From: Bispira polyomma
Taxonomy: Eukaryota
Reading direction: 5' to 3'
Assembly: GCA_965649765.1 (NCBI GenBank)
Contig: OZ287749.1
Coordinates: 310,001-374,000, forward strand
DNA: 64,000 nt
Both the position numbers and the translations under genes were made by a program. Positions 13,504 to 61,214 of the stretch are shown here, in pieces (the stretch's first letter is position 1; each line of letters starts with the position of its first letter). The notes below the pieces were generated by a model. That model searched no databases, was not told the origin of the DNA, and was given only the letters and a program-made list of their open reading frames with translations.

Positions 13504-13897
13504 TATATGTATAAAAATAGAGTAATATATGTAGTACTGGTATGTTCTTAAGTGAGTGACTGTCTACTTCAGCATTTTTGTAACATCTGATAGCTCTTTG
13601 CATTGCCATAAAACTTTACAGTTACAGGAAACAGGCACCAGTGAACACCAGATGTGCGAAGTAGCTGACCACTTCACTCATTCGCGGAACACACAGCAAA
13701 GACACTACAATGTGAGAAAATCGATTCAAACATCACACAGGGCCACTTCTGCAATTAAAAGTCTATCAAAGGTAAGCCCTTCTTCATGAATTTATACACG
13801 CATATTGAATGGCAATAATAAATTTCATTTATAGTGGTTATACATGTACTGCAAGTAACACCAATGTGTACTATTTCACCATTGTAACAATTGTGTT

Positions 13898-19721: not shown

Positions 19722-20648
19722 CAAAAATATGTAAATTTTTGAGGCAAAATGCCTCGAGGCTGTGCAAACATGGATGGAAAGCGTCAAGCTTAAACTCAAC
19801 CCAGATAAAACCGAATTCATCACTATAGGTGAAAACTCGACTCGAGACAGCTGCAAACCATTATTTCCAATCAGTCTACTAAACAACAATATGTCACCAT
19901 CAAGTAAAGTCAAAAACCTTGGTGTTATTTTCGACCAAGAGAACTCTTTCAGTAGTCATGTAGCTAGTGTCTGCCGAGCCTGTTACTACCATCTACGCGA
20001 TCTGTGCAGAATACGCAGGTACCTCAGTCACGAAACTGCGGTGCAAGTGGCTAACGCAATGGTGAGCAGCCGGCTAGACTACTGCAACTCCTTGCTGTAC
20101 GGTATAAATAAGGCCAACATAACAAGGCTCCAAAGAGAAATGCCCTCTGCCGTATTGTGTACAGGCTTAGCAAATTTAGCCATGTCTCACCCTACCTAAA
20201 GAAACTCCATTGACTACCTGTTGAACAGCGCATTCTCTTTAAATACAACCTTCTTGTGTTTAAAGCCATCAAACTCAACCAACCTCCCTATCTCTCCTCA
20301 CTTATCAAATCTAGTAGCCTTACCCAGGAAAAACCGCCTCTCCGTCTTCTCAACCCAACCTAACAGAAAAATCGGTAGGCGCTGTTTTGCCGTTGCAGCT
20401 CCTGTTAAATGGAACAAACTCCCTCATACTGTCAGATCACAGGATAAAATTTCTGGTTTTACAAGCCATCTGAAAACCTACCTTTACAGACTGGCCTACC
20501 CCCCTCCTTAGTCACCCTTCCCTTGGTGGATGCTTTTTGGTAACGACCTTTGCTTGCCCCTTGATTATCCCTTTTTGCATACCAGCGCCTTAGAGGATGT
20601 TTTCATCAATTTGGCGCTATATAAATGGTTCAATTATTCAATTATTAT
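19722..20648 (+). mobile_element. 5'-truncated CR1/L2-clade LINE nested in the I element
   Basis: LKLNPDKTE, VKNLGVIFD, SRLDYCNSLL, HLKTYLY; (ATT)n tail; TSD TACATAT at 19715-19721 and 20649-20655, whose removal restores host frame SLYVEA. Confidence 0.9.
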
Positions 20649-23120
20649 TACATATAAGCTTTGCATTGGAGAAGTCCTGAAGGCTCCTAGACATATTCTT
20701 AAGCCCTGGTTTTGAATGGGTTCCAATTTTCTCAAATAAGACTTACGGGCAGAGCTAAAAACTGCACAACCATATTCCATCCTTGATCTAACAAAAGATG
20801 GATACATCCTTAGTAGTACACTTCTGTCTGCACCCCAATCCATTTTTGACACTACTTTTAATAAATTCATTGCTTTGTCACATTTCTTACGCACATAGTC
20901 AATATGTGCTTTAAAATTCAACTTGTTATCAAGTATAATGCCAAGAAACTTTGTTTGTGTTACTACAGGTATCTGAGTGCCATATAATGTCAATGTAGGA
21001 TCTAGATAAAGTTTTCTTTTGTTACAGAAGTGCATGCATACTGGTTTAGTTTTAGAAAATTTAAAACCACTTTCATCAGCCCATTCTTCAATTTTATTCA
21101 GGCATAGCTGTAATTGTCTCTCTATAGAGGCCATATTATTTGAGCTATATGTTATTGAGAGGTCATCAACAAAGAGAGACTTTTCAAAGTTGGATGGAAT
21201 AATATCGCTTATGCTATTGATTTTTAAAATAAACAAAGCAACAGCAAGGATACTTCCTTGAGGAACACCCATTTCATGATTGTGCATATCTGAATTAACT
21301 GATCCTAGACGAACTTTAAAAACTCTATTGGATAAAAAATTCTGAATAAAAACAGGCATTCTACCACGAAGCCCTGCCTTATACAAATCTCTGGCAACAC
21401 CATATTTCCAAACAGTATCATATGCTTTTTCTAGATCAAAAAATACTGAAACTACATGGTTGCCTTTTAAAAATGAATCTCTAATTAAAGATTCAAGTCG
21501 AACTAATTGGTCTGTTGTTGTTCGACCTTTCTAAAACCACTTTGATGGACACTTAAAATGTTGTTTTTTTCAAGAAACCAAACCAATCTTGCATTAATCA
21601 TTCTTTCCATGGTTTTGCACAAGCAGCTCGTCAAAGATATGGGACGGTAATTAGACGGGTTTTGTGGGTCTTTACCAGGCTTAGGAATGGGTAAAATAGT
21701 TGCTTCTTTTCAGCATTCAGGGATTTCACCAATTATCCATAGTTCATTAAATATGTCTAATAGTACCACAAGTGAATCCCTTGGCAAATGTTTAAGTAAT
21801 TGATAATGTACTTCATCAGGCCCTGTGGCTGTATCATGAGACTTTTTTAATGCATCTATCAATTCTGATATATTGAACTCCATGTTATAATTTTCTTGGT
21901 TTCTTGATGTAATTTTTACTGCTGGAATTTTTGCTTATTTCTTTTGCTATATCTCCTCTTTCTGTTATTTTACTTCCATCAGTATTTACTAGATGTCTTA
22001 CTGTTGTATTATTTTGATTCCCATTTATTTTCCTAAGCATTTCCCATACCTTTTTGGCTGAAGTATTTGTATTTAGTTTCGATATATATTCCTGCCAGGA
22101 GTTTCTTTTAGCTGCTTTAATTACACTCCGAGCCTTAGCCCTGCAGTTTCTATATTCATTTATATTTGCCGATGTTGGATTTATTCGGCATTTATCTAGG
22201 GCTTTCTGACGAGCTTTTTGGACCCTTTTACATTCATCATTAAACCATGGTTTAAAACTACCAGTGGACTGTCCTGAGGATTTAGGTATACTTTTTGTGG
22301 CTGTGTCATTCAATTTACTCAAAAAAACAGGAAACTTGTCACTCAAATTTTGAAATGTATGTCTATTAATTTCAAGTGAGCAATGTAGCTGATATTTTAC
22401 CCAATCAGCCTTTTTAATGTTCCAACGGGGTGCATTGTCTCTTGGTATATTTTTAACTATATGGATTAGAATTGGGAAATGATCACCACCACATTGGTCA
22501 CTGTGAACTTGCCAAGTAAAGTCAAGGAATATTGAACTGGAACATAATGATACATCTATTGCAGTTAAAGATCCTGTAGCTGGATGTAGATATGTAGGAG
22601 AATAGTCATTGAGTAAACAAACACCAGATGAATCTAATATATGCTCAATCTTTTCTCCTCTACTATCACAGTGATTTGAACCCCACAACTCATTATGGGC
22701 ATTAAAGTCACCTATTAATAAAAATGGTTGTGGCAGTTCATTGACTAGAGTATCTAAGTTTTTCTGTGTAACTGTACAACTTGGTGGAATATATATACAA
22801 CATATAGTTATGGTTTTGTGTAGGGATACTTTAACTGCTATGGCTTGTAACTGTGTAGTTAAGGAGATTACTTCATGTGGCACACCTTTTTTAACAAATA
22901 ATGAGCAACCTCCAAATACTCTTCCATTAACTTCTGAAACACTAGTTTTGTAATAGTGATCAAAGCCTCTCAACTTGTAATTATCATTGTCTTTAAAATA
23001 TGTTTCCTGCAAAGCTAAAATGTATGGACTAAAATCAGAAATTAAATGTTTAATTTCTTCAAAATTTGGCTTATAGCCACGACAGTTCCACTGGATAATG
23101 TGTTTTTGGTTTGGTTTCAT
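20649..23120 (-). pseudogene. LINE ORF2 APE endonuclease + reverse transcriptase, disrupted
   Basis: IIQWNCRG, LQET, GDFNAH, GDHFPI; NYRPISLTSC, FFDLEKAYD, GVPQGS, LFVDD, KFLG. Confidence 0.92.
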
Positions 23121-23129
23121 TATTTAATT

Positions 23130-23924
23130 TTATTTACAATTTTGACTCCAGGGTCTTCCTATATTATTTTGTGGTGGTAGGTCAACCATCATTTCATTAT
23201 CTACTTCACCATCGGAGTAAAGAGTATCTTGTTTATTATATTGTTTAATAAGATCATTTGACCCTTTTGAATTTCTATTTCTATTGAGAATTACCTTACT
23301 CTGGTTATTTGTCACTTTGACTGATTCATTTTTTGATTTGGTTGCTTCAGTTTGACATGAAGATGTAACTTTGGTTAAAACTACTTTTGAATCCTTTTCA
23401 TTTGTTGCTTGTGGTAATTTTTTGGGACTTTTTAATGTTTCTGGCCAAGTCATATCTGTCTGAGTTTCTTTGGAGCAAAGTGTCACAGATTTTGTTACTT
23501 TGGCATATGAAGTTTTTACATTATTAAATATTGATATTTGTTTCTTGGCTTCTGTATAAGATATACCTCTTTCAGTTTTGATTTTTTGGATTTCACTTTC
23601 TTCTTTCCATTTTGGGCAAGTTTTGTCGGTAGCTGAATGATTTCCCTCACAATTAATACACTTGGCATCATTTTCGCATTCATGTATATCTGTATGATTC
23701 TCACTACCACATTTTGGGCACACTTCTTTTCTTCTACATGTAAATTTTGTATAACCAAATTTTTGGCATCTGAAGCACCTCATTGGATTTGGAACAAACA
23801 CCGACACAGGCACTCGCAAATGACCCACCCTGATGTATTTTGGTAGAACTTGGCATGCAAAAGTCAATATGAAAGTCCCAGTACGCCTTCTTTCGTCCTC
23901 TCGAAAAATCGTTATTCGGTCCAA
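23130..23924 (-). pseudogene. LINE ORF1 (gag-like zinc knuckles), partial
   Basis: RCFRCQKFGYTKFTC, CPKCGSENH..C, CINCEGNHSA..C. Confidence 0.88.
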
Positions 23925-25490
23925 CTTTAAAATAAAAATAGGGTGTTACAATATATATACAATATATGTATCTAAAATTGATCACTGTATCTGAAATAAG
24001 CGCAAAAATATAATTGGAATTTAGATAAGTAAGGTAAGTAAGGCAAAATAGTCACAAAAATCTCAATTTCGGCAAATATTACCCTAAATCTACGTTTTTT
24101 AAGTGGTAAATTTCAGATTCCTTACTCTAAGAGTTTTTGGAAAAAGAAATTTGAAAAGTTTATCTATATTTGGTGGTTTGAATAGTGAGCAATCGGCTTT
24201 AATTTTTAAACCAGTCACAGGTATTGGATAGTTATTGGGTACTTATGATGTTACAGTGCTATTGTAAATACTTGCTAGTCTTTATGTGGAAGTGCAATCT
24301 AGTCTATACTATAACTGAGAGATCTCTGACAAACTCTTGGTTACTGGTGTCAACAAGCAAATCTCTGAAAAGGCTGGGAGTTTTAGTTTGGTACATTTAC
24401 GAAGATTAGGAAAACCGATTGTCGTAATGATACCTACAGTACTTTTTAAGGTTTTTGTGGGTTTCAAAATAATCTCTGTGTCTACCAGCTAATCATGTAT
24501 TACTTCAAATGAAAAAATATTTGGGCAAAATAGGGTCTGCAGTTTGAAGAGCAATCATAAATAGTTTGGGGCTAAACCAAAGTTTAATTATGGAGATATG
24601 GGCTATTTCAAATCGGGTACATTGGTCTTTCTACACATTTTTCACTCCAATTTTTGGATTGGCTCTAAAAATGATATATTGAGGTATTAATTAACTTTCG
24701 AGATTTTATATTATATTGCACTTAGCCTAAGACCTTTTGTGAATAGCACCCAGTGGTGGTGAAGGAATGGCTATTCGGGGAGGCAGGAGGCCATTTTACA
24801 AAATAAAATCAATAGAATATGTGAAAAGAATTCAAGATGCATAGATACTGTGTGTTAAAAATTAAAGCATAATAGTGGTTCTGACATAAGTTTGGAGAGT
24901 CAAAAATTACTACTTTGTGATAAATGTCAATGAAATAGTAAGTATACTTATTGTTCCAAGTTTTTTTATATTTGGTTAGAGTGTATCTAGTCAAGCTCTC
25001 AAGGTGAGTAAAGTTGTATTTAAATCTTGTATTGTAGTGGGTCAAGTACCAGTCAATATTTTTATAATAAATAAATCATCAGTTTCGAGGCATAGATTTA
25101 AGCTGCATGCTGGTAGTGTAAATAATTTATATCTTTTGTATGTGTTGTACATGTATATCAATTTGTTTATATATTCATTTATATGTGTAAATTAATCATG
25201 TTTAAATTTATTCAACATAGATTTTCGGCAAAGCCTCTTGAAAGAAATTCAGTTACCACACTTGTGAGAAAACTGTTGTGACTAGCTTCTTTAAATTTGC
25301 TGAATATATTCATTGTTATGAAAGGTTGCCCATAACTTAATATGGCCTCATGAAAAAGAAGACATGGCCATCTGACTAATTCTATGAAAATAATCCCACA
25401 GTATACATTGACAAAATATGGCTATTTTGTGATAATCTACAAAATTGCAAAGTTTAAGAATTAAAACCCCTTGACTTCCAAAATTTTTCT

Positions 25491-34882: not shown

Positions 34883-35590
34883 TAGTGTTTTTTTATAAAG
34901 TAGTAGTACCACACAGTAGTATTTAAAGTATTTAAAGTTATTTAAACTTTAACAAAATACTGTGCACTAATTCCCATGTAAAGAAACACACATGTTACAG
35001 TTATGTGAAAATTATCAATATTGTAGACCTCATGCAATTTTTCTTAACTCTTTCAACACAAACTCAGTTGCGCTTAAACCGGCTTATATAATCCTAGGTA
35101 TAACCAAAAAAGATAGTGTTTCTTTCACATTACTACAGCAAGCAGTTAGGTAAAGTTTAGGCTTCTATACACATTGAAACGCAGTAGATAATTACAATAT
35201 ACTAGTGAAGAACAAAGTACTAAAGCCAGGTCTACTTGCATTCTCAAAAGGCCAAGCTAAGCCTTTAGTGTTGCTCATGAGATGGAGAACAAAATCATTC
35301 TGTCACAGGAAAGTGTGGATTTTTTCTAAAAATAACTAATTTGGTCCTTTACCAATACCTAGCCTAACCATCTAGAAACCCCCCAGACTTATCCGTTTTC
35401 AAATACAACCACTCACAATGAGCCACCAACACATTTTGGCTTAACCTTAGGATTAGCCAAAACACAGGTTCAACAGCAATCAATTTGTTTTAAATGAACT
35501 TCAAAGTGTTTAGACCATCTAAAACCCCCCCCCCCCAGACTTGTCTGTTTTCAAATACAACCACTCACAATGAGCCACCAACACTGTCGA

Positions 35591-35905
35591 TGTTTGTAGG
35601 CAGCACCAGCTTCTGCACAGGGTGTTTGTTAGGTACCTCGTAAATAATGGTGGGAGACTTCCTGACCAATATGGTGGCTTGCTGTGATTTCATACTTGGA
35701 CCCATTTCCTGCCTTTTCAGATGCCTTAGCTGGTGTATGCTGCACTTTTTCTGTGGGTATGGATGCTGCTTCCACCGCAGTCTGAAGCATGTCCTCACAG
35801 TTCTCGCTGAGGAGTTCCTGTAACGCAGGGTCCAATTGGAAGCCAGGGCTGCAAAGACTCATTGGCGACCTGTTCGTCTTACTCCGATCTGGTACACAAA
35901 TAACT
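35591..35905 (-). repeat. Inverted copy of 38804-39117 (Gypsy 3' accessory region)
   Basis: Reverse complement match, seen also as paired ORFs MSSQFSLRSSCNAGS.WKP at 35789(+) and 38920(-). Confidence 0.92.
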
Positions 35906-35911
35906 GATAAG

Positions 35912-36797
35912 ATGGCGGGTGGCTTTGAGACTTTGACGCTCGGGACTGCACCGATAAAGGTCTACAGACATATAGGGACCATTGCTTCTAAGCTCAGGAC
36001 TGTGATGGATGGGGGTGGTAACATACCTCCAGAGGATATCGGGTCTTATTTGCTCACCTCGGTGGTGCAACTGTTGGGTGCAGACCTGGTATTCGAAAAC
36101 ACCGTGGCAGAGACAGACGCAGCAGTTATATCTGACGAAGCCACGACTATGCAGGCGCTGCAGATTGAGTTTGGAGTAGCCTGCCACATTCTGAAACCAA
36201 TCACCAAGGAGAACAAAGACTACGTAAAGAAGAGATGGGAGACAGTGACAGGTATCTTGCGTGAGAGAGGATTGGGACTTCCTTCTATAGAGGCAGTGGT
36301 ATCAGAAAAAATTAGCTTCCTTGCCCAATGTCCTGTGATCTCTCTCCACCTAAAACCACGGGGTGTTTTGACATCGGCAAAGAGAATGAGGAAGGATGCT
36401 GTTAGGGAAGAGCTTTGCAACCAGGTGTTGCTGGTGGCTTCGCTCAATGGTATGGTATCTATTCAGAAAATGATGGATTTGATCACTGTAGGGACAAATC
36501 TGGCTCTCACCATTCCGGAGGTTGTCGCAGATGCATTAAAATTCAAGAATGCATACATGACTGCAAAGGAACGTTGCGGTGATGACTGGGAATTTGCGCG
36601 CATCTTGCACCCTGAGACGTTAAAAGAGTTAAGAGTCCGCACGCTACCCTGACCTTTATTACGCGGCAAGTCAGTCAGCGATAACTCAAGATGGTTTCAA
36701 GTCCACTCAATTCCTGATTTCCAGCCGCAAGACAAAGGCACCCCTGGACACCTTGAAAAAAAGTCAGCAATGTCTGCCACTGGTGGTGATGAGGTAA
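35912..36797 (+). pseudogene. Endogenous viral element: negative-strand RNA virus (Mononegavirales/Jingchuvirales-like) nucleoprotein
   Basis: Intronless, higher GC; KPITKENKDYVKKRW, NQVLLVASLNGM, EFARILHP..L, and after a frameshift at ~36640 YPDLYYAA, resembling the conserved F/YPxL..AA core of mononegaviral N. Confidence 0.65.
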
Positions 36798-36813
36798 CTG
36801 CTGATCTTGGGAT

Positions 36814-37930
36814 GAAGATGTTAGTGGGAAGTACACATGGCAGCTAGTGGTACCTGAAGGTAGACGCCAAGAAGTGTTACAAATGGTACATGATCACCCA
36901 ACAGCTGGCCACCTTGGGGAACACAAGACATTAGCCAACATCCGGCTTAGGTTCTACTGGTACGGACACAGAAAAGATGTGGAAAAATGGTGTGGATCTT
37001 GTCACTTGTGTGCATCACGAAAGGGACCCAGCAAGAAAAGGCGTGGAAAAATGGGACATACTGCAGTTGGAATGCCAATGGAAAGAGTTGCACGGGATAT
37101 AATGGAACCACTACCCCGAAGTACAAGAGGCAACCAATACCTGTTAGTGTTATCAGACTACTTCACCAAATGGGTAGAAGCATATGCGATACCTAATCAA
37201 GAAGCTGCTACAGTTGCACGAAAATTAATGGAAGAATTTATCTGCAGGTTTGGTGTATCACTTGCTGTACACACCAATCAGGGAAGACAGTTTGAATCAA
37301 CTCTATTTCAGGAGTGGTGTGACATGCTTGATATTGACAAGAGCAGAACAACACCTTTCCATCCTCAAAGTGATGGATTAGTTAAGCGGATGAATAGAAC
37401 CTTGGAAAATATGTTTTTTCTTGGAAAAAGTGTTATTATGTTAAGTGTTACATCAGAAAGATTGGGACAGCTACATACCATTTCTACTTCTAGCTTATAG
37501 ATCAACAATGCAAAAAACCACAAATGCTTCACCTAATTTGCTAATGCAGAGAAGTATTCCTTCCAGTTGACGTCATCTTTGGGAGACCAGCAAGACAAGA
37601 ATATCCTGATACAACAGAGTATATCACACAACTACAAGAGGGATTACAGTCAGCCCATGAGTATGTATGCATAAAGATGCAACGAGCCAGTTTGAGACAG
37701 AAACGTTATGACAAAAAGGCACATGGGAAGTTACATGAAAATGGCGATCTAGTTTGGCTGTAAGAACTTATTAGGAAAACAGGAGTATGTCCTAAACTAC
37801 AGAGATTTTGGAAGGAACCTTATACAGTTCTTCAGAAGATAAATGATTTGCTGTACAGAATACAGCGATCCCCAAAGACAAAATCAAAAGTGGTACACTT
37901 TGACCGACTAAAAGAGTATAAGAAACGTGA
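36814..37930 (+). mobile_element. Gypsy LTR retrotransposon integrase fragment
   Basis: HDHPTAGH..CxxCxxC zinc finger, DIMEPLP, SDYFTKWVEAY, TNQG (D>N), HPQSDGLVKR (E>K), GPY/F-like WKEPY, VVHFDRLK. Confidence 0.92.
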
Positions 37931-38504
37931 AACTCTAGAAGGCAAGAGTAACAAGGACACAGGTGACATTGCCGGTATCAGTGAACAGGAAAGTTCAAGG
38001 ATACCAGAAAATATAATGGATGACTCATCAGATGAAGAGGATGATTTTCTGAGGGAACCAGGGCCAGGTGTCCCTGATTATGATAATGTATCCTCAGGTG
38101 GGAGTATTGGAGAAGGCGCCCTCCAGATCAGACAGGTGGATTCTGTCTGGTAGGAAGTGAAACAGAGATTCCTGGAACTTCCGGTACATTAAGTGAAAGT
38201 GTAGGAAGTGGAACTGAGATTCCTGGAACTTCCGGTACACTACATGAACAGATGAGAATGTAAGAGAGGGTGTTGGCAATGGCCCTTTGGAAGTATGTGA
38301 CCTTGAGAAAGGGACCTTCACTAAAGACAATCCTCGACACTTGACACATACTAGACATTCCCCTGACCGATTGACATATAATTAAGTATTCTTCAGACTC
38401 CCACTTATATCTCAGCACATCAGACCACACTAGTTAAGATTGTAGTGTTTTTTGTTTTATTAAGAATACAACAACTTACAACCAACTTATACTTACTGTT
38501 ACAG

Positions 38505-39117
38505 ATGCCCAGATAGTACTTTTGTCAGAAGTGCAACCTTGCCTTCAACAGAAAGTTGAATTGGGAGAGGCACTTTGAAAATGTTCACAGCACATCCACA
38601 TCTACGTTCATCTGTCCTTTCTGCCCAACAAGGAGGAAACATAAAACAGACATGAGACAGCATCTTAAGACAGTGCACCCGGACAGGAAATTCCAAAGTC
38701 AAGCTGATCCTGGACTGGTACAGGAAATCAGAATTAATCGCTCACAAATACAACACATGGTATCTGATGAAGCACTGCATACTCCATCACCAGCCATCAA
38801 ATGAGTTATTTGTGTACCAGATCGGAGTAAGACGAACAGGTCGCCAATGAGTCTTTGCAGCTCTGGCTTCCAATAGGACCCTGCATTACAGGAACTCCTC
38901 AGCGAGAACTGTGAGGACATGCTTCAGACTGCGGTGGAAGCAGCATCCTTACCCACAGAAAAAGTGCAGCATACACCAGCTAAGGAATCTGAAAAAGCAG
39001 AAATGGGTCCAAGTATGACATCACAGCAAGCCACCATATTGGTCAGGAAGTCTCCCACCATTATTTACGAGGTACCTAACGAACACCCTGTGCAGAAGTT
39101 GGTGCTCCCTACAAACA
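38505..39117 (+). pseudogene. C2H2 zinc-finger ORF downstream of Gypsy pol (putative accessory ORF)
   Basis: ttactgttacag|ATG; FCQKCNLAFNRKLNWERHFENVH and CPFCPTRRKHKTDMRQHLKTVH; stops at 38514 and 38802. Confidence 0.65.
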
Positions 39118-40075
39118 GCCTAGCACCCCAGCCACACACAGCCACCACACCATAGGCAAGGAGACCAGACATGCCCCATCCAGAGAGACCCGCCACACAG
39201 AGTTGGCAACACCAACCACCCAACACTGAAAATTCACACCCTAGAAAACCAATGATTCCATCCTCAGGACTTCACAGAGTCCGGAACCCTCACGAAGACC
39301 TTCTTCTAGACCACCCACACCTTCCTTTAACAACTTACCTCTCCAAAACCACAGCCTATATATGATATCAACCTCTCTGCAATTGATGTTAGGGGTTCCC
39401 AAAACCCACTGTCAAACTTCTTCCCCTGCCAACTCACAGAGTGGCGACACACAGGTCCTCTGAGCATGCCTATCAAACCATCCAGGCCACCTTCTGCAAT
39501 ATGTATTCCCTTGCCCAAGATTAGCAGCTTTTGCATCGGGGGCGTCTGCTATAAGAACTCCCACATCTCCTTAAAGACAATGAGTATCCAACCAAGTGGG
39601 CGGAAGAAAAAGTTAACTTGATGGGGGAAATACTCACACAGAAATTTGAACAAATCAGACCTTTCAGGGAAACACTCATAGCCACCCAGAACAGACGAAT
39701 CATTCACAAAGTCCCTGACCCCTTCTGGGGCAGCACCTACACCAATCCTCACCACCCAGCCAAGACCCACAAGACCACACCAAAAACCCAACACTGAAAA
39801 CTCACAACCAGGTCCTCTGAGCATGCATACTAGACTATCCAGGCCACCTTCTGCAAGATGTACTGCTAAAGAACTTTCCCACCTCCTTAAAGACAATGAG
39901 AACCAAACCAAGTGGGCTGAAGAAACAAAGACAAGGATATCATCATTATACCAGCAGACAAGGGCTCCTCAATGATTATCATGAACTCCGCAGACTACAT
40001 CTCAGAAGCAAAACGCCAACTTTGCAATCAATTTCACTACAAACAAATACCCAAACCCCTAATAATTCTCCCTAA
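39118..40075 (+). mobile_element. Rearranged Penelope fragments (NADAR region of copy-A type + RT N-terminal piece)
   Basis: DNA similar to 50-650 and 2058-2185; NPLSNFFPC, SEHAYQTIQA, DPFWG; IIIPADKG. Confidence 0.85.
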
Positions 40076-40576
40076 TGAGACAAATTATTCCCGTCACAGG
40101 CAAAAAAATTCACCTAAATAAGACTAAAAACGCGTACTATTATGAAAATATACCCCCAGCAAAACAGTCTTACAGCACACCCCTCTTTATTCATACCGTA
40201 GCAAAAAACCCACACCCACCAACCCACCATAAATCTCTACTCGCAACCAGTGACACTGGATCCTACTAAACCTATAAACCTAACCATGCTATTGCCTACT
40301 AGCTATAGGTTAGGAAGTGGTTATGTTTTAGGGGGCTGTATTTATTATAAAGACCATTATAATAATAATGCACATATATTATTATAAGAGCAATTCACAC
40401 AGCGAAACCCTAGGGATCCAAAACTTACCTCAGCCATTCCCTTACTATAAGGTTTACTATTACCTATCACCCCAAACATTTAGCAACTCTGAAAAGCATT
40501 TGACAGCCAAAACAAATCATTCTTTTTAACAATATAACGACCCTCTTTTTGCTTCCAAAAACAAAAACTATGTAAA

Positions 40577-41966
40577 ATGTCTCTTTACAGCCCTGACATC
40601 TCCAACCCAACCAGGCACCTGACGACTTCCCTGAAGATGCTTCACCACCTCAGTAATATAGGGGCCAACCTGAATACCTCAAGGATGCCTGAGGGCTTCA
40701 ACCTTGGGAAGGAGGAACCCAAACGTTACCTCAGGCCAGCCTGTGACAATAATTACATTAATGGCTTACTACAACCACACATCAACCGACTGTTTGAGGG
40801 TACTTTGACTTAAGGAGACATTACAAGTTCACACTGTTCCAGACCATTCAAAAAGTAAAAAGCCTCAATCCAGGAAAAATTTTCTATGACAAGTCCACCT
40901 TGACTGGATAAGAAAAAAGCTTAATCAAAAATATCATTCCACAATCATCAATAGGTTCACCACCCTCTTCAAACGCAAAGATGACATCTCCCACCCAGAG
41001 GACCTGAACAGGCTATTATTTCAGATGTTTCCAGTGACCAGATGAACCACCAGGACCCACAATGGACGACCAGGACACCAGATCAGACGTGAACTTGACC
41101 TACAGAAACCAACTAACTACCAAGACAACTCTACCACAACTACCCAACAAGACACAACAGACACGAACAGCACTACTACCAACACCCAGGCTGATGGACC
41201 TAAAAGTCACTCCCCCTTTCCAGAGACCTACCAACTAGGACTACCACCTTCCATTTAGACACCCACAACAGATTTCACAGTCTTCAAACCAACGAAAGAC
41301 CTACCTAAATGACCAGAGCAGCCTAACAAACGAGTAGACCACACCAGCCAAAAACAAAACAGACAGGACCACCACAGCAAAAAGAACATCATAGACTACT
41401 GACAGTACAAACCTTCAAGGCACTACAACTAACCTATAAACCAAAAAAACAACAATTACTGCTGTATCATGTCTTTTTACAGCCCAGAGGTATCCCACCT
41501 GGCCAGACACCTCACCACCTCCCTGAAGATGTTACATCACCTCAGTAACATAGGTGCCAATCTAGACTCTGCCAGGATGCCACAGGGCTTCCACATGAAA
41601 AAGGATGAACTTAGACAATACCTCAGACCAGCCTGTGAAAACTACATTAATCACTTACTCAACCAGCATGTCCACCGGCTATTCGACAACACCTTGACAG
41701 ACCTCAGGAAACACTACAAATTCACCGTCTTCCAGGCTATCCAGAAAGTCAAAAACCTAAATCCTGGAAGGAATTTATTTGACAAAGCAACCCAACTAAC
41801 CCTGGACTGGATAAGGAAAAAATTACATCAGAAATACCATTCGACCACAACCAACAAATTCTCTGCCATCTACAGACAGAAACACAACATTTCCCACCCT
41901 GAGGACCTGAACAGGATACTGTTCCTGATGTTCCCACCAACAAAACCAACCAACCTTTATAAATAA
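40577..41966 (+). mobile_element. Two tandem PLE ORF1 5' fragments
   Basis: MS(L/F)YSP..S..RHLTTSLKMLHHLSNIG...YLRPAC...HYK, homologous to the N-terminus of ORF 5801. Confidence 0.8.
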
Positions 41967-42782
41967 TATTACACATATATTATTATAATAACAATTCACA
42001 CAGCTAAACCCTAGGGATCCAAAACTCATTTAAATATATTCCTCTGATACACATTCTCCTACACCCACCCACAATACACAACTAGGCCAAAACACAAACC
42101 CACCATATATCATTATACTCATAAATTCAAAAATCATCCCTTGAATTCACAACAAAACCCATCATAGGAAACCAACTACAAATCCACATAACACATACAT
42201 TAGCATTGTAACGATGAAATGACTTCTCACATGAGTACACTGAACCAGGACTAGTTAAGCAAAGGTGTCTAAATTTACCCCATAAAATTATTACCCAAAG
42301 CCCTTAAAAACTTCTTATCTCACTATAAGTTTAACTTAAAAGTATTTTTAAAATTTTTAAAATAACCCCCCCCCCCTTTTTCTTAAAAACCAAGAGACCT
42401 TTTTCTAATTACAATTCATGAAATACACCCTCCCCTTCACCCACTCCAATACCACTAAGCTATTACAATCAACTCCCTAAATTTCTAATCACCCATTTTC
42501 CAATCCACAATCACGATCCCCAACTTTGGCAATTACAATTACCCACATTTCAATCAGGCAACTGACACCCCTCCTCCAACTAATTCCAAATCTTACAATT
42601 ATCAAAAATAATCCTGATTACGATATTTATCCCTAACACCACCCTTTATCAATTACAATACACCCTAATTACGTTTTCCAATCACCTTCCTTTTCCAAAA
42701 AAACCTAACACTATTCTCTATAGATTAACTTCTCCCATTCCTCAATTACAATCACTATAAGCTCCCTCTCCCCTATCACCAC

Positions 42783-42816
42783 TATATAAACCCACACTCT
42801 AGTCCTTAAGTCATTC
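42783..42816 (+). promoter_or_regulatory. TATA + Inr of PLE leader
   Basis: TATATAAA at 42783, TCATTC at 42811. Confidence 0.55.
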
Positions 42817-42820
42817 CACG

Positions 42821-42859
42821 TTCCACTAATGAAGGTCGTTGACCGAAACATGTCTGGAA
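42821..42859 (+). ncRNA. Minimal type I hammerhead ribozyme
   Basis: ttcca-CTAATGA-A-GGTC gtt GACC-GAAA-CATG-TC-tggaa: perfect stems I and II, palindromic ACATGT stem III, GUC cleavage site; core G5 replaced by A. Confidence 0.8.
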
Positions 42860-44491
42860 ACTTGGTATATGTTAAGTTTAGTGACATTATACTATATTGT
42901 ACTATAATATCTTTCTTTTTTCAGATAGGGTTGTATTACTCAGCTAATTAAGTCAACTCTTTGAAGTAATAAATTACAGGTTTTTTCTTATTATACTATA
43001 TCAGGTGTTTTTTTGTAATTATAACGTTAATTATAGATATATTTTATTATAATATATCACTTCCTTGTATAAATATAACGTATATTCTATACATTTTTTA
43101 TTGGTTTACATAGTTAAATAGTCACTTATAAAGGTATACCAGGTATCTGTAAAATTGTATAGAAGAAGTATCTTATAATTGGAATACCTTCACGTTAGCA
43201 TATCTAGGAATTATTCTGTATTTGGTTTAATATATACCCTTAATACTATATATACCATACTTTAAACTCATTTCTGCACTATATAAATACTACACTTTAT
43301 ATATCTGCACAGTTCCATAATAACTACTTGTCTATGTAACGATTCCTTACTACTATATATATACTGCACTGTATAAAAAAATTCTTGTATTTTGCACCAT
43401 ATAAATACCACACATTGTACCTATATATACGTGCATTGTACCTTTTTGTACTATTGTACTCCCGTGTTTGTACTATTACTAGTCACATATTTCCTTGTAG
43501 ACTAGCTACCAACCATTTGGCTTAAAAACTATTCAATTCTTCTATGTAACATTCCAAATTTTGAATGAAATTCTAATATCTCTAAATAAATAAAAATTAA
43601 GATATCTATAAATAGTGAATATATTCACTAATTCTTCCATTACCCAGCGTTTTTTTTTTCTCTAGTCACCGTCAACTCATCCACCTACTACAAATCACCT
43701 ACTGCTCCATAGAACAAATAAAATCCCACAACTACCTTATACCAGGGAGCCCACACCACACAAAACTCACCATAACTCGCCTAATACAGCACCACTCCAC
43801 GCTGTCAAAGCAGAGCTAATCATCACAAATACTTACCCTAAAAGTCTCAACGGACTCTAAACGAGCTCTAAAGATACACGGCACTTACCTTAGACTCTAA
43901 CACAGCTACTCATCAACTCTAATTTACTACAAATCTTACCCCTACTTACCTAACACACACACCTAAAACTAAAACAATTCTTTTTCACTGGACTGACAAA
44001 TCAATTTTTTAACCATACACACACATTTACACACTACAGAACCTTCTCTCACAAAACACCACACAACTAAATGGCTCTACAAACTCCACATTCCACACTC
44101 TTTCTTCTCTCACTCACTTTTGTGGATCTTAATAAAGCCTTTGACAATCACCAAGCAATAACCCTATCAACGGACCATAAGCAATACCCTAGACAATAAA
44201 AGGTTTCTACCAAACGCCACACCCTCCATCTATTTCTCTACACACACACACCTGGGTAACACCCAGCTATGCACACACACAAAGCCTTTGACACATCAAG
44301 GCCAACTCCACACACAAACTTAACTATAAAAACCTGAAACCCTTCTCTGTATCTATACCACCCACACTTCCCTTCCAACAACACTTAAAATTTAGCGACC
44401 CTAAAAAGCCAGTTGACAGCTCAAACCAACCAAAAATTTCTTTTCTCCTCCCTCTCTCTTACCCATAAAAAACAAGTATTACTGCTGTACC

Positions 44492-46427
44492 ATGTCTTCC
44501 TACAGCCCTGACGTTTCCCACCTGGCCAGACACCTCACCACCTCCCTCAAGATGCTACACCACCTGAACAACATTGGGGCCAACTTAGACTCTGCCAGGA
44601 TGCCACAGGGCTTTAGTATGAAGAAAGATAACTGAGGCGTTACCTGCCTGCGACAACAACTACATAAACAATCTCCTCAACCAACACGTCAACCGACTGT
44701 TTGACAATACACTCACTGACCTCAGGCTACATTACAAGTTCACCCTCTTCCAGGCCATTCAGAAGGTGAAAGACCTCAATCCGGGACGGAATTTCTTTGA
44801 CAAGGCCACACAACTCTCCCTGGCCTGGATTAGGAAGAAACTCCACCAAAAATACCATTCCACCACAAACAAATTTGCAGCCATCTTTAGACAAAGACAT
44901 AACATCAACCACCCTGAGGACCTGAACAGGATGCTGTTCATGATGTTCCCTCCAATTAGACCCACTACCAGGGCACAGAACCGACGACCACAACATGACA
45001 CCAGACCTGACCTACTTACAGACGTTAGAAGACAACACCTACTACCATCACCCAAGACTTCCATTCCAAGACTTATGGACCTCCAAGTCAGCCCTCCATT
45101 CCAGAGGCCCACCAAGACCTTCCCTTGACACCACCGACCTAGGACGACAGAATTTAACATAGCTACCCACAACAGGTTCCAAGGACTCCAGACCAATTTA
45201 AGGACCCACACAGACCATCCATCCACCAGACAGCCACAAGACAACAAGACTGACAAAACCACCACCAAAACCAGACCTACTGAAAAAAAACCAGCACCCA
45301 CCACCACCAACAGAGGCCTTCCCTCTCCACCATGAACCAGTCACAGACCAGCAGACCCTCTAAGGAGACCACCATAGAGCCACCACCACCTTCCTTTCCT
45401 CAGACCTCGACAGCACCTACCCAGCTATGTGACCCATCCCTACCACCCATCGACGTCCAGGAATCCATTATGCAACATGTATCCTTGTTCCTCCAACTTT
45501 AGGGGGTCTCACTTCTCCAGTACAGAACAGGCTTACCAGACGATCCAGGCCAGCTTTTGCCAAGAATATGACCTAGCCCAACAAATCATGGACATTTCTA
45601 ACCCATTCCAGGCCAAACAACTCTCCAAGATCCTGAAGCAACATCCATCCCAGGCCCAATGGTCAGAAGAAAAGGCCAATCTCATGGGGGAGATCCTCCA
45701 TGAGAAGTACAAACAGGTTCCTGTCTTTAAGACTAATCTACTTCAGACTGGACGCAGAAGAATCACCCATAACCTCCCAGACTCCTTTGGGGGCACCACT
45801 TACTCCAACCAAGTAGGCAAAAAATTTATGGGCAGAGACAAATTCGCTACCCTCCTGATGACCATCAGAGACATACACACCCCCAAACCACAGAGACCAC
45901 CTAGGACATCCAGGACCCTCAGAGGCATCACCATACAGGACCACAAGACCACTACCCCTACACACGTACATAGAACCAACCTGACGGACACTACACTTCC
46001 CACCCTCACAACACCTACCAGGAGACTACCTAAGACCCCCACAAAAAACCAGACCAACCACCAGAAGGACCATCAATCACCCAGGACCACCACTGCAGTA
46101 CGACCTAAGGACCACAGGACACCCACGACTACCCACAGGACACCCACGACTACCCACAGGACACCCACGACTACCCACAGGACACCCACTACTACCCACA
46201 CTCCAGCCAGACCACAGACACCACCACCTACAGAGACTACACCTGATCTTCAGACCACCACCACACCTACCAATGACCACCCTCAGGACCACAACATTGG
46301 GGCCAACTTAGACTCTGCCAGGATGCCAAAGGGCTTTAGTATGAAGAAAGAGAACATCACACTCAAAAAATTACTTCTCAATCCAGATATAATTATCAAA
46401 TCTATAATAACCTACCATTTATATTAA
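44492..46427 (+). mobile_element. PLE ORF1 (third subfamily): N-terminal domain + NADAR, truncated before SGNH
   Basis: MSSYSPDVSHLARHLTTSLKMLHH; RNPLCNMYPC...STEQAYQTIQA...AKQLS...WSEEKANLMGEILHEKY...LLQTGRRRITH..DSFGG..GRDKFATLLMTIRD; 21-bp TTTHRTP repeat 46110-46200. Confidence 0.85.
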
Positions 46428-49107: not shown

Positions 49108-50845
49108 AAATAGCCTTACTTATATAAATAAAATCAAAACTATTACTGATACAAAGACAATGGAGTCCCTATACTGCAAAATTACTGCCAAAAAAGAAAT
49201 TAACGTGAAGAAAAGTCATTCAAGTGTCGTCTCTAAATTCATAACATTATGACATTTAATGTCTCAATTGGTAATTTATTGACTATCGGATTAAAGTGCT
49301 GTTTATTGTTATTGGAAGCTACTGGTAACTTAATGTTATAGAAGAGGCGTTATTTAAACAAAGAAACTGTTGACTTCTTGCCGATAATGACACATACAGC
49401 ACTTGATTGTGTTAGAATTACACCATTAATTAAGTATGTGTCAAGGCCACTTTACTTTGTCAGCAAAAGGCTTTCATCTCCGTTACGACTTAACCAAATG
49501 TCTAGATAAGGTGAAAATCAAACACACTTTGCTTCTTTGTGTAATGGGTAAGTTGGATTTCATTTTAACAGATGTAAATTGCGTATAACCCACTAAAACA
49601 CAAAATCTACAGTCTAAACAGCTGGCTGAATCTTGTATGAGCACTATTTTTTCTACAAAATATGAGCAAACAGTGACAAGATAACGTTAGTAAAGAGTTA
49701 TAGAATTAACACCTGACAGTTGACAAATATTTTCTTTCAAAAGTGAACAGTCTCTCTGTTCAAATTGAATATTTATGTTTTGGTCACTTTTCATAATTTA
49801 CATTAAATTGAGAGCAATAATATTGTCATAACTGCAAGCATGGCACAAGACAGACGATTATAATATTGTTTTAATTGAGCCACTGTATTATGTAAATAAA
49901 CAGAAATAATATGACAATTCACAACCAATATTCCTCTTTTTGGTACAATAATTACAATATTGTCTCGGACTTTTGTGCACCTTTCTGTAGTGCACTTTCC
50001 CTTGTATTCAATGATGACACTTTAAATGATCCCTGTATGGTCCCCTTGCATTAATATTATTTACTTTCTCACTAAAAGTGCTTTTTTAACGATAATAGAT
50101 ATTTAATGCCACTTATGATCATTCACCTAAAGTCACTATGATAACCTAATACGAGTGACTTTACAGGTTAAACAGTTTCAACTCACAGCTTTTATCAGTC
50201 ACTATTCCACCATTACAAAGCCTGTATATGTGTCCCAAAGGCAGTGTGGGGTCCAGTGGAGTGAGCTATTGCTTTGTAATCAGAGAGATAAGTGTGACAC
50301 TTGGAGTGGTGTATAAAAGCCTTAGAGAGCCAATTAGATCAGAGGTGAAGATCTTTTACTGATTACTGTTTGGATTGGTCTCCAGAACCTGATAAACTAA
50401 TGGCTTGATCAAAGCCATAGCCACATCTGATAATATTACTAGTAATGAGTACAGAACAAATTTAAAAGTCAATTTTATTTATTGAAAGTGTCTATAAGGA
50501 AACTTTTTGGGAGAAATCCAATCCAAATATGTTGTTACATATAACTGAACGAAATTAATTTATCAGTTGCAAGAGATTCATTTGAACCAAGTAATTGTAA
50601 ACATTTCATTCACGTCTTCTCTAGCAGCTATTTAATTCCTTTTAGTTCTTGACCACATTGTTTGGTGTACCAGGACCTTTACATGTTAATCAGGTTAACC
50701 ATCATAACTTGTCATACCTTACTGGTTCTAGATATTTACTATGCTTTGTTACTGGCACAGCTTCAAATGTAGCACTTATATATGTGCTTGGACTATAGGG
50801 TTATAGACATGTTTTTTTGTTAAAGTTTGAGGTTTTGATGTCAGT

Positions 50846-53800
50846 ATGTATGGTCCTTGTTTAACCCCCATTTATATTGTAGTATGTATCATACTCAGCC
50901 ATGTGCTGCACACCAGCACACAGAAGGACCTGGAACTGGTGGGTGTCGGGGCATCTCTTCCCGGGGAAGTCTATGAAGCCCTGGCCCCGGCATATGAAAG
51001 CTACAGGAGTACGTTTGTGAGTTTGGATAATGAGTATTATGCTGTTGGTAGTGGGCCTGGCCAAGAAATCTTTCTGAATGACATTGAAGACGACTTCCCC
51101 AGACCAATCACCTACATTGGATCAGATTCTGTTTTGACAGATGATGACTATCAGAAAAATTCTAATCTACAGATGATCCCAGTTTTGGCAGGGTATGATT
51201 GATATAAATTACAAATGTACACTAACTTCCTTTAAATACAATGAAATTATTGCATAGAACACAGCTGTGTATAAAATGGCTGTAAACATACAATTTGTGT
51301 CAACGAAATTGTATTATTATTAGTCTTTCTGCAATGTCCTCAAAACCAATATCATATTATAACCAATTTCCAAAATATCAATACAATCAATTTGCTTGTA
51401 TTTCCAGGTCTGTCGTATTGGCCTACAACCTCAACATAAACCCTGCCTACTCGCTCAACTTGACAATGGATTTAATAGTGGGAATATTTAATGGAACAGT
51501 TCAATTCTGGAATTATTCTGAAATAGTGGAGATAAACCCAAACATCAACCTTCCAAACAGCAGTATCCGTGCGATTACTCGGGCTGATGAATCTGGATCC
51601 ACCGAGATTTTTACATCCACACTAAGTTTTCATAGCCCAGAATGGAATGCTACCTATGGGACGTTTAGCAAAGGCTTGGATTTGGATGAAGAACCAGTAT
51701 ATTGGGATCCGGATGTGGTGTCTTTGTATGGGAGAACAAACGGGGATGTCAGGGATCATCCTGTCATATAGGAACTCTATTGGCTATGTCTCTGTGGCCG
51801 ATGTTGTTGTTGCGCAGCTGAGATACGCAAGAATATTACACAATGGTTACTATCTGGATGTTGAAATGCAGGATTATACAGACATCATGGAGAGGACTCA
51901 AGATCTGTTTGATTCACACTTCACACTGGATCTCTCCAGGCATGTCTTACCCGGGGAGTATCCTTTTATAGGCTACAGTTACTTCATCATGAACAAACAC
52001 TTCTCCACAAACTGCGATCTGATTGTTGAACTGGTCCGGTACATGGAATGGATCGGTGAAGACGACTTTGCAAGAGCAGAAATTCGAGACTTTCAAGTTG
52101 AACCAGTTTTGGTGGAAATAAGAGACCGTATTGTGAACGATGTCTTAAAGGAAATGACGTGCGAGAATAAAAACTTGTATGACTTAGTTCAAGAGCAGAA
52201 GTATCAAGAGTTTCTATCTCAGCAGGTATGGAGGATTCCTGTCTTCATATTTACTGGTGTGGTGGTTGTCTTTGTACTGTTACTAATTGCTTACATCATC
52301 TGGCAGCAAATCAAGCTACACAGAGCAATTAATGCAGATGAATGGAAGATTGACAAAGGGAACATTACTCTTAGCTGGACCCGTAAGTTAGGCATTATAA
52401 ACAAAGGGATTGGCAGCGCAATCTCCTTGAATATGTCTACGATGTCAAATGTTAGTATGTCTGCATTTTCTAACATATACGGTATTGGTATTTATGGCCA
52501 GAAAAATGTATGTCTCCGAGATGTTGGTGTCATCCATCTGGATACACATAGGAAAGAAATAAAAAAACTGTTAATCTGGATGAGAGACAAACTTCAACAC
52601 AACAACATTTTACGTTTTTATGGCATTGTCATGTTTCAAAGTGGCTACGAGAAATATTACGTCAGTGATTATTGCCCCAAAGGTACACTCTCCGATGTAG
52701 TTCAAAATGACAAGTATCGGATTGACGACAACATCAAGTTTTCTCTGGCAATGGATATCACCAATGGCATGGTATTTATACACAGTCACGGTCTTGTGCA
52801 CGGCCACCTGACATCGGAGCATTGTTTTATTGACCATCGGTGGAACGTTAAAGTCGCAGACTGGGAAAGTAACAAACTCAAGACAATGCACCAAACAAAG
52901 CGTATGTCCAAGACGAGTATTTCTCCACATGAGATAGAAGTTGTGGAGGAAGATCCCAACATCATAGCACGCCAGCAGATCTGGATGGATCCAGATTTAT
53001 TAAAACAGGATTCCATGCCTGTCTTTGTTAAGCATCATGATGTCTACAGCTTTGCTTTAATTCTGGTGGAGATTTTTACAAGAGAAGATCCATTTGCTGA
53101 GTTCAGTGTCAAAATGGAACCCATCCAGATACTGGAGCATATCAAGAGCACCAACTTAAAACCCGATGTGAATAGCATCAACCCACGACCCATTCGCCCA
53201 ATTATAACCAGTGCCTGGCACAAGGAGGCAGGAGAAAGGCTTACATTTGGGGCTCTTAACAAGGCTATCAAAGCGGCCAAACCCTCCAGAAAAGGTAACC
53301 AAAACTTGATTTGGTTGATATGTACAATGATCTGATAATTGTATATTGGTTTACCACCCACAGTTTTTGTGCTGTGTAATTGTATTTGTCACTGGATTTT
53401 TCTGTATTTGTCCTTAGTCTAATTGTATTTGTGTATTGTAGGGGGGCTATTTCAGAAATTTATATTTTTTTCACAGGAGTGATGGATTCTATGATGGAAG
53501 TTCTGGAGTCTTACGCCAGTCATTTAGAGGAGAAGGTATCAGAGAGAACCATAGAACTGGATGCAGCTCACAGGAGTCTACAGAACTTACTGCACCAGGT
53601 AGGCATTGGTTATTGTGTTTGTAACTTTAAAAGAGATTTAAACGACATATTTATGAACCATTTTAAAGACATGTCAATACAATAATGTATGCATTAAATA
53701 GAAGTCGACGGAAATTTCTGCACCAGGTAGGCAGTAGATTGATTATTGTATATGTAAATTTAGAAGAGGTTTACAAACTGGTCAAGCTATGAAACATTCT

Positions 53801-60766: not shown

Positions 60767-61214
60767 TTGTCAATGTAGTGATAAAAGTGAGATAGGTGTA
60801 ACAAAAATCACATCATGATAACTAATTCAGATGTAAATCAGAAAAAAACATGACGAGTTTGTGTCATCAATGCAGATTAGCCGACAACGCTACTAAAATT
60901 GTTCCAGTTATACGTAAATCTTTACCACCCTTTAAGTTTTAAAAAACTAAAATATTATTGTTTTCGATAAATAATGTAATGTAGATTAGTTTTCAGGACT
61001 AGTCTTCAGGAAATAGTGTGGTTCCCAAAGTTAACGTTAACTTTAACCTTCGTTGAATAACATAGATTTCGAGTAATTGTTATCTGTATTTTGATAAACT
61101 GAATTCTTTTGAGAGCTGAGCTAGAATTAATTATCTCAAAAGTACAGTAGGAACAGAAAAGTCCCCAAAAAGAATTGACAGTGAGAAAAGAAACTGTAGA
61201 CGTTGGTAAGTTTA

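What the first reader, a model, noticed from the sequence alone, without database searches (positions are those of the whole stretch)
35591..39117. RNA-virus nucleoprotein EVE captured between two pieces of one Gypsy element
Seen: the order is [Gypsy 3' region, inverted, 35591-35905] - [N-like ORF from its ATG at 35912] - [Gypsy integrase to 3' region, forward, ending 39117]. At the left junction the viral start GATGGCGGGTG aligns with the Gypsy continuation GATGGCTGGTG (reverse of ~38789-38799), a microhomology. Established: non-retroviral EVEs often arise when LTR-retrotransposon RT switches template onto viral RNA. Inference: a fossil chimeric cDNA made by two template switches, recording infection by a possibly undescribed mononegavirus-like virus. 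The ~315-bp inverted repeats could fold a read-through transcript into a hairpin feeding small-RNA pathways.
Basis: partly seen in the sequence, partly recalled or inferred. Interest (0 to 1): 0.75.

Follow-up and report, generated by a model that had tools for sequence, protein, structure and literature searches.

The report
Nyamivirus-like fossil gene in Gypsy fold-back
A likely invertebrate genome carries the nucleoprotein gene of an unnamed nyamivirus-like RNA virus, joined at both ends to pieces of a Gypsy retrotransposon whose reverse transcriptase likely copied it in, and a sister viral fragment in another assembly is fused to a protein resembling the same Gypsy group, which suggests repeated capture.

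Summary
The layout is real and the viral call holds. 35912-36807 encodes a mononegavirus nucleoprotein: all 5 named hits among 30 relatives are nyamivirus or nyamivirus-like N proteins, and profile and fold searches reach bornavirus N. It lies in a clade of unnamed proteins from long contigs (likely other EVEs) with no named virus. It abuts Gypsy integrase at 36807/36808 and an inverted 315-nt Gypsy copy on the left through a 12-of-16 microhomology. Both junctions are bridged in contigs of two samples. The arms are part of a zinc-finger ORF3, not LTRs; no LTR or target-site duplication was found. Both arms end within 6 nt of one Gypsy coordinate, which best fits a cDNA that switched onto N mRNA and then folded back on itself. 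The hairpin stem would be Gypsy only, with the viral gene in the loop, so an antiviral hairpin is unsupported. A sister N fragment elsewhere is fused in frame to a gag-like sequence of the same Gypsy group. The window's two frame breaks may be assembly errors or allele-specific. Known kind of event, with a new virus lineage and an unusual architecture.

The parts
35368..35584 (.). Left flank: high-copy satellite-like repeat, two partial copies about 152 nt apart; the second is interrupted at 35584
   Evidence: 35379-35432 vs 35531-35584 96%; summed contig depth up to 351,463 against 230 over the N gene in run X2, and loose ends at 35584 continue with the repeat unit
35585..35590 (.). Six letters between the satellite and the left arm; either six more letters of ORF3 or filler
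   Evidence: not resolved
35591..35905 (-). Left arm: inverted copy of Gypsy ORF3 38804-39117
   Evidence: 11 differences in 315 columns
35906..35921 (+). Left junction: 16-nt imperfect homology (12 of 16) between the viral start and the antisense Gypsy continuation; contains the ATG
   Evidence: bridged by contigs in X1, X2, X3 (table 8)
35912..36807 (+). Nyamivirus-like nucleoprotein (N) gene, from the start codon to about codon 298, cut at its 3' end; frame broken in the window near 36633-36650 and likely near 36760
   Evidence: Pfam BDV_P40 E 7.8e-6; 30 relatives; tblastn; profile vs PDB; fold
36808..38385 (+). Gypsy pol, from just before the integrase zinc finger to the pol stop; several stops and at least two frame changes
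   Evidence: Pfam; tblastn with relatives L003, L006; C-terminal R..R.PDRLTY-type motif and stop at 38383-38385 (the motif type also ends pol in L003, L006, L014)
38505..39117 (+). Gypsy ORF3 with N-terminal C2H2 zinc fingers, cut at 39117; 38804-39117 is the right arm
   Evidence: Pfam zf-C2H2 E 3.4e-5; relative L028 has a C2H2 ORF after pol
39118..40057 (+). Right flank: 5'-truncated fragments of a Penelope-like element
   Evidence: 77% to window 40-657 and 90% to 2059-2186; those copies carry GIY-YIG; junction also in run X1 (loose end at 35591)

Best explanation
The unit 35591-39117 is a nyamivirus-like nucleoprotein gene joined directly to Gypsy integrase on its right and to an inverted copy of Gypsy ORF3 on its left, likely the fossil of one chimeric cDNA in which a Gypsy reverse transcriptase likely jumped onto the viral mRNA and then likely folded back onto its own strand. 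Steps: (1, inferred) minus-strand synthesis ran from ORF3 into integrase; (2, junction shown, mechanism inferred) at 36808 it switched to the viral N mRNA near codon 298 and copied it to just before the start codon; (3, homology shown, mechanism inferred) the new 3' end annealed through 12 of 16 letters to the antisense ORF3 sequence of the same strand and was extended to that strand's open end, so both arms end at almost the same coordinate; (4, inferred, weakest) the panhandle-shaped DNA, lacking LTRs, was captured at a break between a satellite and a Penelope-like fragment rather than by integrase. It is now most likely a decaying, unselected fossil.
For: Viral identity: 22 of 30 relatives hit Pfam BDV_P40; the 5 named ones are N or first-ORF proteins of Beihai rhabdo-like virus 3, Nyamanini, Sekira, San Jacinto and Girado virus 1; profile finds bornavirus N at E 2e-21 to 9e-21; model pLDDT 87.6, best viral folds are four nyamivirus N proteins (Sierra Nevada virus as a nyamivirus). 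Same polarity of N and integrase, as in mosquito EVEs where 543 of 614 LTR neighbours share polarity (10.1101/127498, passages). Insert begins 6 nt before a start codon that lines up with an internal Met of relative P0010, which fits an mRNA 5' end. The 16-nt homology is in register with the arm (P about 6e-5 at a fixed site) and has 4 differences, more than arm decay predicts (P about 0.002), so it likely keeps the viral letters, the direction expected if virus was copied first. Junctions bridged in 3 of 3 runs, 2 samples, 1 study. Sister N fragment P0003 ends in a sequence that matches the gag start of 10 of 81 loci picked by this window's integrase, best E 4e-13.
Against: No LTR, no target-site duplication (only a 4-mer inside the arm's own end), so the integration step is not shown. 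Why the strand's open end lay inside ORF3 is unexplained. The viral sequence beyond either junction is unknown, so homology at the right junction cannot be tested. 92 of 871 N 16-mers have a 12-of-16 match somewhere on the Gypsy minus strand, so such homology is not rare if position is ignored. In Aedes cells the hybrids were judged not driven by homology (PMC6797480, passages). The fold is not independent of the sequence evidence, because the alignment held Beihai rhabdo-like virus 3 N.
Confidence: 0.62

Rival explanations
1. Chromosomal rearrangement: an N cDNA was patched into a break in a resident Gypsy copy, and the inverted arm arose later by a replication template switch (microhomology-mediated break-induced replication).
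For: No LTR or target-site duplication; unrelated flanks; the region is dense in decayed repeats.
Against: Needs separate coincidences for the insert starting at the start codon, N and integrase sharing polarity, and both arms ending within 6 nt of one coordinate.
Confidence: 0.18
2. The reverse transcriptase of the neighbouring Penelope-like element made the whole chain in one run: Penelope RNA, Gypsy RNA, N mRNA, then a fold-back.
For: The Penelope-like fragment is 5'-truncated, same strand and directly adjacent; its intact copies align weakly about 25 nt into the right arm. Inverted 5' ends in Penelope-like elements are recalled, not tested.
Against: A fold-back on that strand should have run on into Penelope sequence, but the left arm does not. 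The only other chimera seen (P0003) is with Gypsy gag.
Confidence: 0.1
3. The locus is kept by the host as an antiviral unit (N protein or small RNAs against the virus). Compatible with any origin above.
For: Present in both samples at about twice the depth of diverged Gypsy copies (35 vs 13-18; 230 vs 81-119; 26 vs 11-19; no single-copy control, so copy number is not fixed). Contigs of all three runs differ from the window by one base in length at two sites near the two frame breaks, so the frame may be open there. No in-frame stop in the N pieces against 5 in 650 Gypsy codons. piRNA-like RNAs from putative endogenous virus copies occur in a sponge, starfish and whelk (PMC6085071, passages).
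Against: 0 stops in about 290 codons is expected with P about 0.11 at the Gypsy rate (hand calculation). Only 2 of 6 substitutions between runs and window fall at third codon positions. The gene lacks its natural 3' end. The hairpin stem holds no viral sequence.
Confidence: 0.1
4. Assembly chimera or contamination by viral RNA.
For: The window differs from all run contigs by one-base gaps at three sites, which suggests residual errors in the window or a different individual.
Against: One 988-nt contig spans both junctions in X1 and X3, and two contigs span one each in X2. The arms differ by 3.5%.
Confidence: 0.02

Closest known systems
LTR-retrotransposon/RNA-virus chimeric cDNA and EVEs of Aedes aegypti (10.1101/127498 and PMC6797480, passages read; Geuking 2009 LCMV-IAP seen only as a citation there)
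   Same: Viral coding fragment directly joined to Ty3/gypsy sequence in the same polarity; copy-choice origin proposed.
   Different: Nyamivirus-like N instead of flavi-, rhabdo-, chu- or alphavirus; host likely outside insects; one side is an inverted ORF3 copy ending at the same coordinate as the forward copy; no LTR. The word 'inverted' has 0 hits in both papers.
Nyamiviridae N: Beihai rhabdo-like virus 3 (Berhavirus sipunculi), girado viruses, Nyavirus species
   Same: Best named sequence and fold matches: 28% over 233 columns with Beihai rhabdo-like virus 3; Foldseek E 2.3e-8.
   Different: Only 25-30% identity; forms its own supported clade with unnamed long-contig proteins, with no named virus inside.
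Nyamivirus-related EVEs of the isopod Armadillidium vulgare (PMC4231630, passages)
   Same: Endogenous sequences grouping with nyaviruses in an invertebrate; no target-site duplications.
   Different: Placed mainly on a polymerase tree, and the authors judged retrotransposons unlikely to be involved; here both junctions are with Gypsy DNA. Their supplements were not read.
Endogenous bornavirus-like N (EBLN) elements of vertebrates (features recalled)
   Same: N gene of the same Pfam family fixed in host DNA, apparently from mRNA.
   Different: No poly(A) tail or target-site duplication; partner is Gypsy rather than LINE-1; nearest named proteins are nyamiviral.

Membership tests
Mononegavirales nucleoprotein | Sequence and two-lobed helical fold of mononegavirus N | tested here: met
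   Profile hits bornavirus N (E 2e-21) and filovirus NP; all 35 listed PDB fold matches are mononegavirus nucleoproteins
Nyamiviridae | N closest to nyamivirus N | tested here: met
   5 of 5 named relatives (Sekira as a nyavirus from recall and the tree); top four BFVD folds
Nyamiviridae | Placement in the L-protein phylogeny | not testable with these tools
   No L fragment: no other viral Pfam family among the 111 stop-to-stop frames of 85 aa or more in the window
Nyamiviridae | 10-13 kb genome with N-(P)-(M)-G-L order | not testable with these tools
   Only one gene was captured
Genus Berhavirus | Clade with Beihai rhabdo-like virus 3 or girado viruses | tested here: inconclusive
   N trees leave the window's clade, Beihai 3 and the girado clade unresolved; not filed in the genus
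Endogenous viral element | Virus-derived sequence continuous with host DNA in independent samples | tested here: met
   Junction-bridging contigs in 3 of 3 runs, 2 samples, 1 study
Ty3/Gypsy retrotransposon (donor of the flanks) | Integrase with H2C2, core and C-terminal domains at the end of a gag-pol | tested here: met
   Pfam; 50-51% to pol of L003 and L006
Intact or non-autonomous LTR element carrying N | Two LTRs, polypurine tract, target-site duplication | tested here: not met
   Candidate tract at 38262 lies inside pol; no direct repeat bounds the unit; no duplication
Intact or non-autonomous LTR element carrying N | N present in other family copies | tested here: not met
   0 of 81 related loci; diverged copies in the runs continue as Gypsy at 36808
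EBLN-type LINE retrocopy | Poly(A) tail and target-site duplication (features recalled) | tested here: not met
   N runs straight into integrase; no duplication
Ginger-type TIR transposon with Gypsy-like integrase | TGT...ACA ends (feature recalled) | tested here: met
   35591 and 39117; may be chance
Ginger-type TIR transposon with Gypsy-like integrase | 4-bp target-site duplication and non-coding terminal repeats (features recalled) | tested here: not met
   No duplication; arms are ORF3 coding sequence

The most novel reading that the evidence does not exclude
An undescribed clade of nyamivirus-like viruses has been captured again and again by one Gypsy lineage in marine invertebrates, and this copy is a fixed, open-frame, expressed N gene that the host keeps as heritable antiviral defence: an invertebrate counterpart of the vertebrate EBLN genes, born from a fold-back cDNA.
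Probability: 0.1. Interest if true: 0.82.

Novelty: new variant of a known kind. Interest (0 to 1): 0.52.

Why it matters
It extends Gypsy-mediated capture of RNA-virus genes, best documented in mosquitoes, to a nyamivirus-like lineage in what is likely a non-insect invertebrate. The locus keeps both switch points at base resolution, so the order and direction of the template jumps can be read from the DNA. It also points to an unrecognised set of EVEs: 13 of 30 relatives lie on contigs of 21 kb to 3.4 Mb, far longer than a 10-13 kb nyamivirus genome, and they define a virus clade with no named member. That makes two questions testable: whether this virus group still circulates, and whether one Gypsy lineage captures it preferentially.

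Tried and rejected
LTR reading of 38271-39117 (purine run at 38262, TG...CA ends): rejected because pol continues to 38385 and relatives carry an ORF3 after pol. With it fell the idea of integrase inserting a molecule with two LTR ends. Ginger-type transposon: rejected (no duplication, coding arms). Single-sequence searches that found nothing useful: word-index protein search, 0 of 1845 candidates; PDB phmmer, best E 0.013 to a designed repeat protein; Atlas, no hit at 0.9; PDB phmmer with P0003. No N-related loci in metagenome contigs or viral contigs. The window's ORF3 found no tblastn match in 81 Gypsy loci, so its likeness to L028 ORF3 is architectural only. The left arm plus junction has no unusual structure of its own (z -0.68). 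No RNA holder listed. No whole genome is held, so other copies and the empty site could not be searched. Four look-ups of earlier findings returned nothing. Literature searches listed no paper whose title or opening abstract describes a nyamivirus N EVE joined to Gypsy or an inverted fold-back chimera; the library lacks most subscription papers and supplements were not read.

Full report
Observation. 35591-35921 is a reversed copy of 38788-39117 (331 nt, 95.5%). The core of the two arms (35591-35905, 38804-39117) differs at 11 of 315 columns, 5 of them transitions; one of the 11, a one-base gap, is not seen in the run contigs. An ORF starts at 35912 and is open for 246 codons. Gypsy integrase follows (Integrase_H2C2 E 9e-21, rve E 3e-12, Integrase_p58_C E 3e-13).

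The protein is a nyamivirus-like nucleoprotein. Pfam gives BDV_P40 at E 7.8e-6, just under the curated cut-off. An exhaustive search found 30 relatives (best E 2.6e-17), of which 22 hit BDV_P40. Names were looked up for 29 and one more came: 5 of 30 are named, as N of Beihai rhabdo-like virus 3 (Berhavirus, Nyamiviridae), Nyamanini, Sekira and San Jacinto viruses, and a protein of girado virus 1 (Berhavirus; PMC12282299, passages). A profile of the window protein with 28 relatives finds Borna disease virus N at E 2e-21 to 9e-21 and filovirus NP weakly. The model is confident (pLDDT 87.6); its best solved match is bornavirus N and its best predicted matches are N of Beihai rhabdo-like virus 3, Sierra Nevada virus and Beihai rhabdo-like viruses 4 and 5. 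This fold evidence is not independent, since the alignment held one of those proteins. Identity to named viruses is only 25-30%. In two trees the window protein is sister to P0003/P0004/P0010 (99/97, 99/96) inside a clade of 8 (93/90; 31 rows) or 7 (99/96; 18 rows, 13 short, long-branch or redundant rows left out) unnamed proteins, all from contigs of 55 kb to 3.4 Mb, with no named virus. Overall 13 of 30 relatives lie on contigs over 20 kb, against a 10-13 kb genome for the family (PMC10010136, whole text); they are likely EVEs too, but their DNA could not be read. Family membership rests on L phylogeny, which cannot be tested, so I call it nyamivirus-like and do not file it in a genus.

Extent and breaks. 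Relatives match 35927-36761, changing frame near 36633-36650; a second break near 36760 is inferred from the frames. Contigs of three public runs (two samples, one study) differ from the window by one base in length at two sites near those breaks and by four shared substitutions. The breaks may therefore be errors in the window's assembly or belong to one allele; whether the frame is open in those samples is left open. The insert ends at 36807, about codon 298, short of the 350-380 residues of full-length relatives such as P0007, P0011, P0019 and P0022.

Junctions. One 988-nt contig (35876-36863) spans both junctions in X1 and X3, and two contigs span one each in X2, so this is not an assembly chimera. 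Right junction: a diverged family copy has Leu-Tyr-Lys-Arg codons before 36808, matching the Leu-Tyr-Arg-Lys seen at that place in relative L006, so Gypsy begins at 36808. Left junction: 35906-35921 matches the antisense Gypsy continuation at 12 of 16 letters, the best of 4590 Gypsy 16-mers and in register with the arm (P about 6e-5 at a fixed site). Four differences in 16 exceed arm decay (P about 0.002), so the stretch is likely viral sequence that annealed to Gypsy. As a caution, 92 of 871 N 16-mers have such a match somewhere on the Gypsy minus strand. Depth over N (35, 230, 26) equals that of the near-identical integrase contigs (40, 222, 26) and is about twice that of diverged copies; there is no single-copy control.

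What the arms are. I first read 38271-39117 as an LTR. That fails: pol runs on to a typical C-terminal motif and stop at 38385, and a zinc-finger ORF starts at 38505. Among 81 loci picked by this integrase, of 14 whose ORFs were listed L006 and L028 carry a further ORF after pol, and that of L028 has C2H2 fingers (E 4.8e-4). The arms are thus the middle of an ORF3, cut at 39117 on the right and at the same point, or up to 6 nt further, on the left. No target-site duplication was found. The left flank is a very high-copy satellite-like repeat and the right flank a truncated Penelope-like element.

Mechanism. Read on the minus strand, the unit is antisense ORF3 and integrase, antisense N, then sense ORF3. 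A minus-strand cDNA that switches from Gypsy RNA to N mRNA explains the first two parts and the shared polarity. The third part needs an antisense Gypsy template. The simplest is the molecule's own 5' part: a fold-back primed by the 16-nt homology and extended to the strand's open end. This explains why both arms stop at one coordinate, which two independent truncations would not. Shown: identity, junctions, homology, shared end. Inferred: the enzyme, the order of jumps, the fold-back, and capture at a chromosomal break. Unexplained: why the open end lay inside ORF3. Arm divergence of about 3.2-3.5% means about 1.6% per arm; with an assumed rate of 2-10 per billion sites per year that is roughly 2-8 million years, but no host rate is known and gene conversion or window errors could shift it.

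A second capture. P0003 and P0004 come from contigs of identical length (814,614 nt) and cover the C- and N-terminal halves of a sister N (54% and 40% to the window protein). After its N part ends near residue 197, P0003 continues in frame with a sequence that matches the gag start in 10 of the 81 Gypsy loci (best E 4e-13); the Atlas gives DUF7041 and DUF1759 clusters at 0.91-0.92, a lead only. The N profile finds nothing in those 81 loci. This is one more N-Gypsy junction, with a different Gypsy part, seen at protein level only.

Function. The arms could pair strongly in a read-through RNA (perfect runs of 58, 63 and 61 nt), but the stem would be Gypsy ORF3 and the viral gene would lie in the loop, so hairpin-derived small RNAs would target Gypsy, not the virus. 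Signs of selection on N are absent or weak: 2 of 6 substitutions at third positions, and 0 stops against 5 in 650 Gypsy codons (P about 0.11 by hand). A dead fossil is most likely; an expressed, retained gene is not excluded.

Host. Not established. The element content is animal, and a PBP-kinase-guanylate cyclase gene in the window has its single listed hit in the polychaete Paralvinella palmiformis (39%), a weak hint at a lophotrochozoan. Named berhaviruses come from sipunculids, echinoderms and flatworms.

Comparison and verdict. Gypsy-virus chimeras and same-polarity EVEs are established in Aedes (10.1101/127498 and PMC6797480, passages), and nyamivirus-related EVEs in an isopod (PMC4231630, passages). 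Passages of PMC6085071, PMC9241645, PMC11097642 and PMC13524379 were also read; none of those passages describes this arrangement. Nine searches listed no report of a nyamivirus N joined to Gypsy or of a fold-back form, within a library that lacks most subscription papers; supplements were not read and may hold such EVEs. Verdict: real, a new variant of a known kind; interest 0.52.

Noticed in passing
protein P0003 and P0004 (814,614-nt contig): Sister nyamivirus-like N in two pieces; the C-terminal piece is fused in frame to a Gypsy gag-like start. DNA context not available.
   Followed up: partly
proteins P0002-P0006, P0008, P0010, P0014, P0016, P0023, P0025, P0028, P0031: 13 of 30 N relatives lie on contigs of 21 kb to 3.4 Mb, likely an unreported set of nyamivirus-like N EVEs; P0005 has 6 cluster members on three contigs.
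   Followed up: partly
window 1-3897, 5798-10563, 39118-46424: Penelope-like elements with a NADAR domain (E 1e-14 to 2e-8) and a GDSL-like hydrolase upstream of the RT-like region and GIY-YIG nuclease; I did not check whether NADAR is described for such elements.
   Followed up: no
window 50831-56280: Receptor-like gene with a phosphate-binding-protein (PBP_like_2) domain, kinase-like domain and guanylate cyclase; one listed hit, in Paralvinella palmiformis (39%).
   Followed up: partly
L028 8676-9929; L006 7989-9537: Related Gypsy elements with an extra sense ORF after pol; L028's has C2H2 fingers and a Ser/Thr/Pro-rich tail, like the window's ORF3.
   Followed up: partly
window 35368-35584: Satellite-like repeat of very high copy number, with about 1500 times the depth of the N gene in one run and telomere-like letters in neighbouring copies.
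   Followed up: no
window 18559-23945, minus strand: Decayed LINE with endonuclease, RT and RNase H domains.
   Followed up: no
window 16636-17805: Two frames matching the two halves of DUF6729 (E 1e-27 and 5e-25).
   Followed up: no
window 11910-13511: Frames with a zinc-finger-like start and a stretch that looks, from recall, like a tyrosine recombinase; no Pfam hit.
   Followed up: no
window 58171-58374 and 59204-59398: A second pair of inverted repeats (91-94%) about 0.8-1.1 kb apart, MITE-like.
   Followed up: no
window 10517-11835, 53997-54476, 61173-61591: Tandem arrays with periods of 147, 80 and 40 nt.
   Followed up: no
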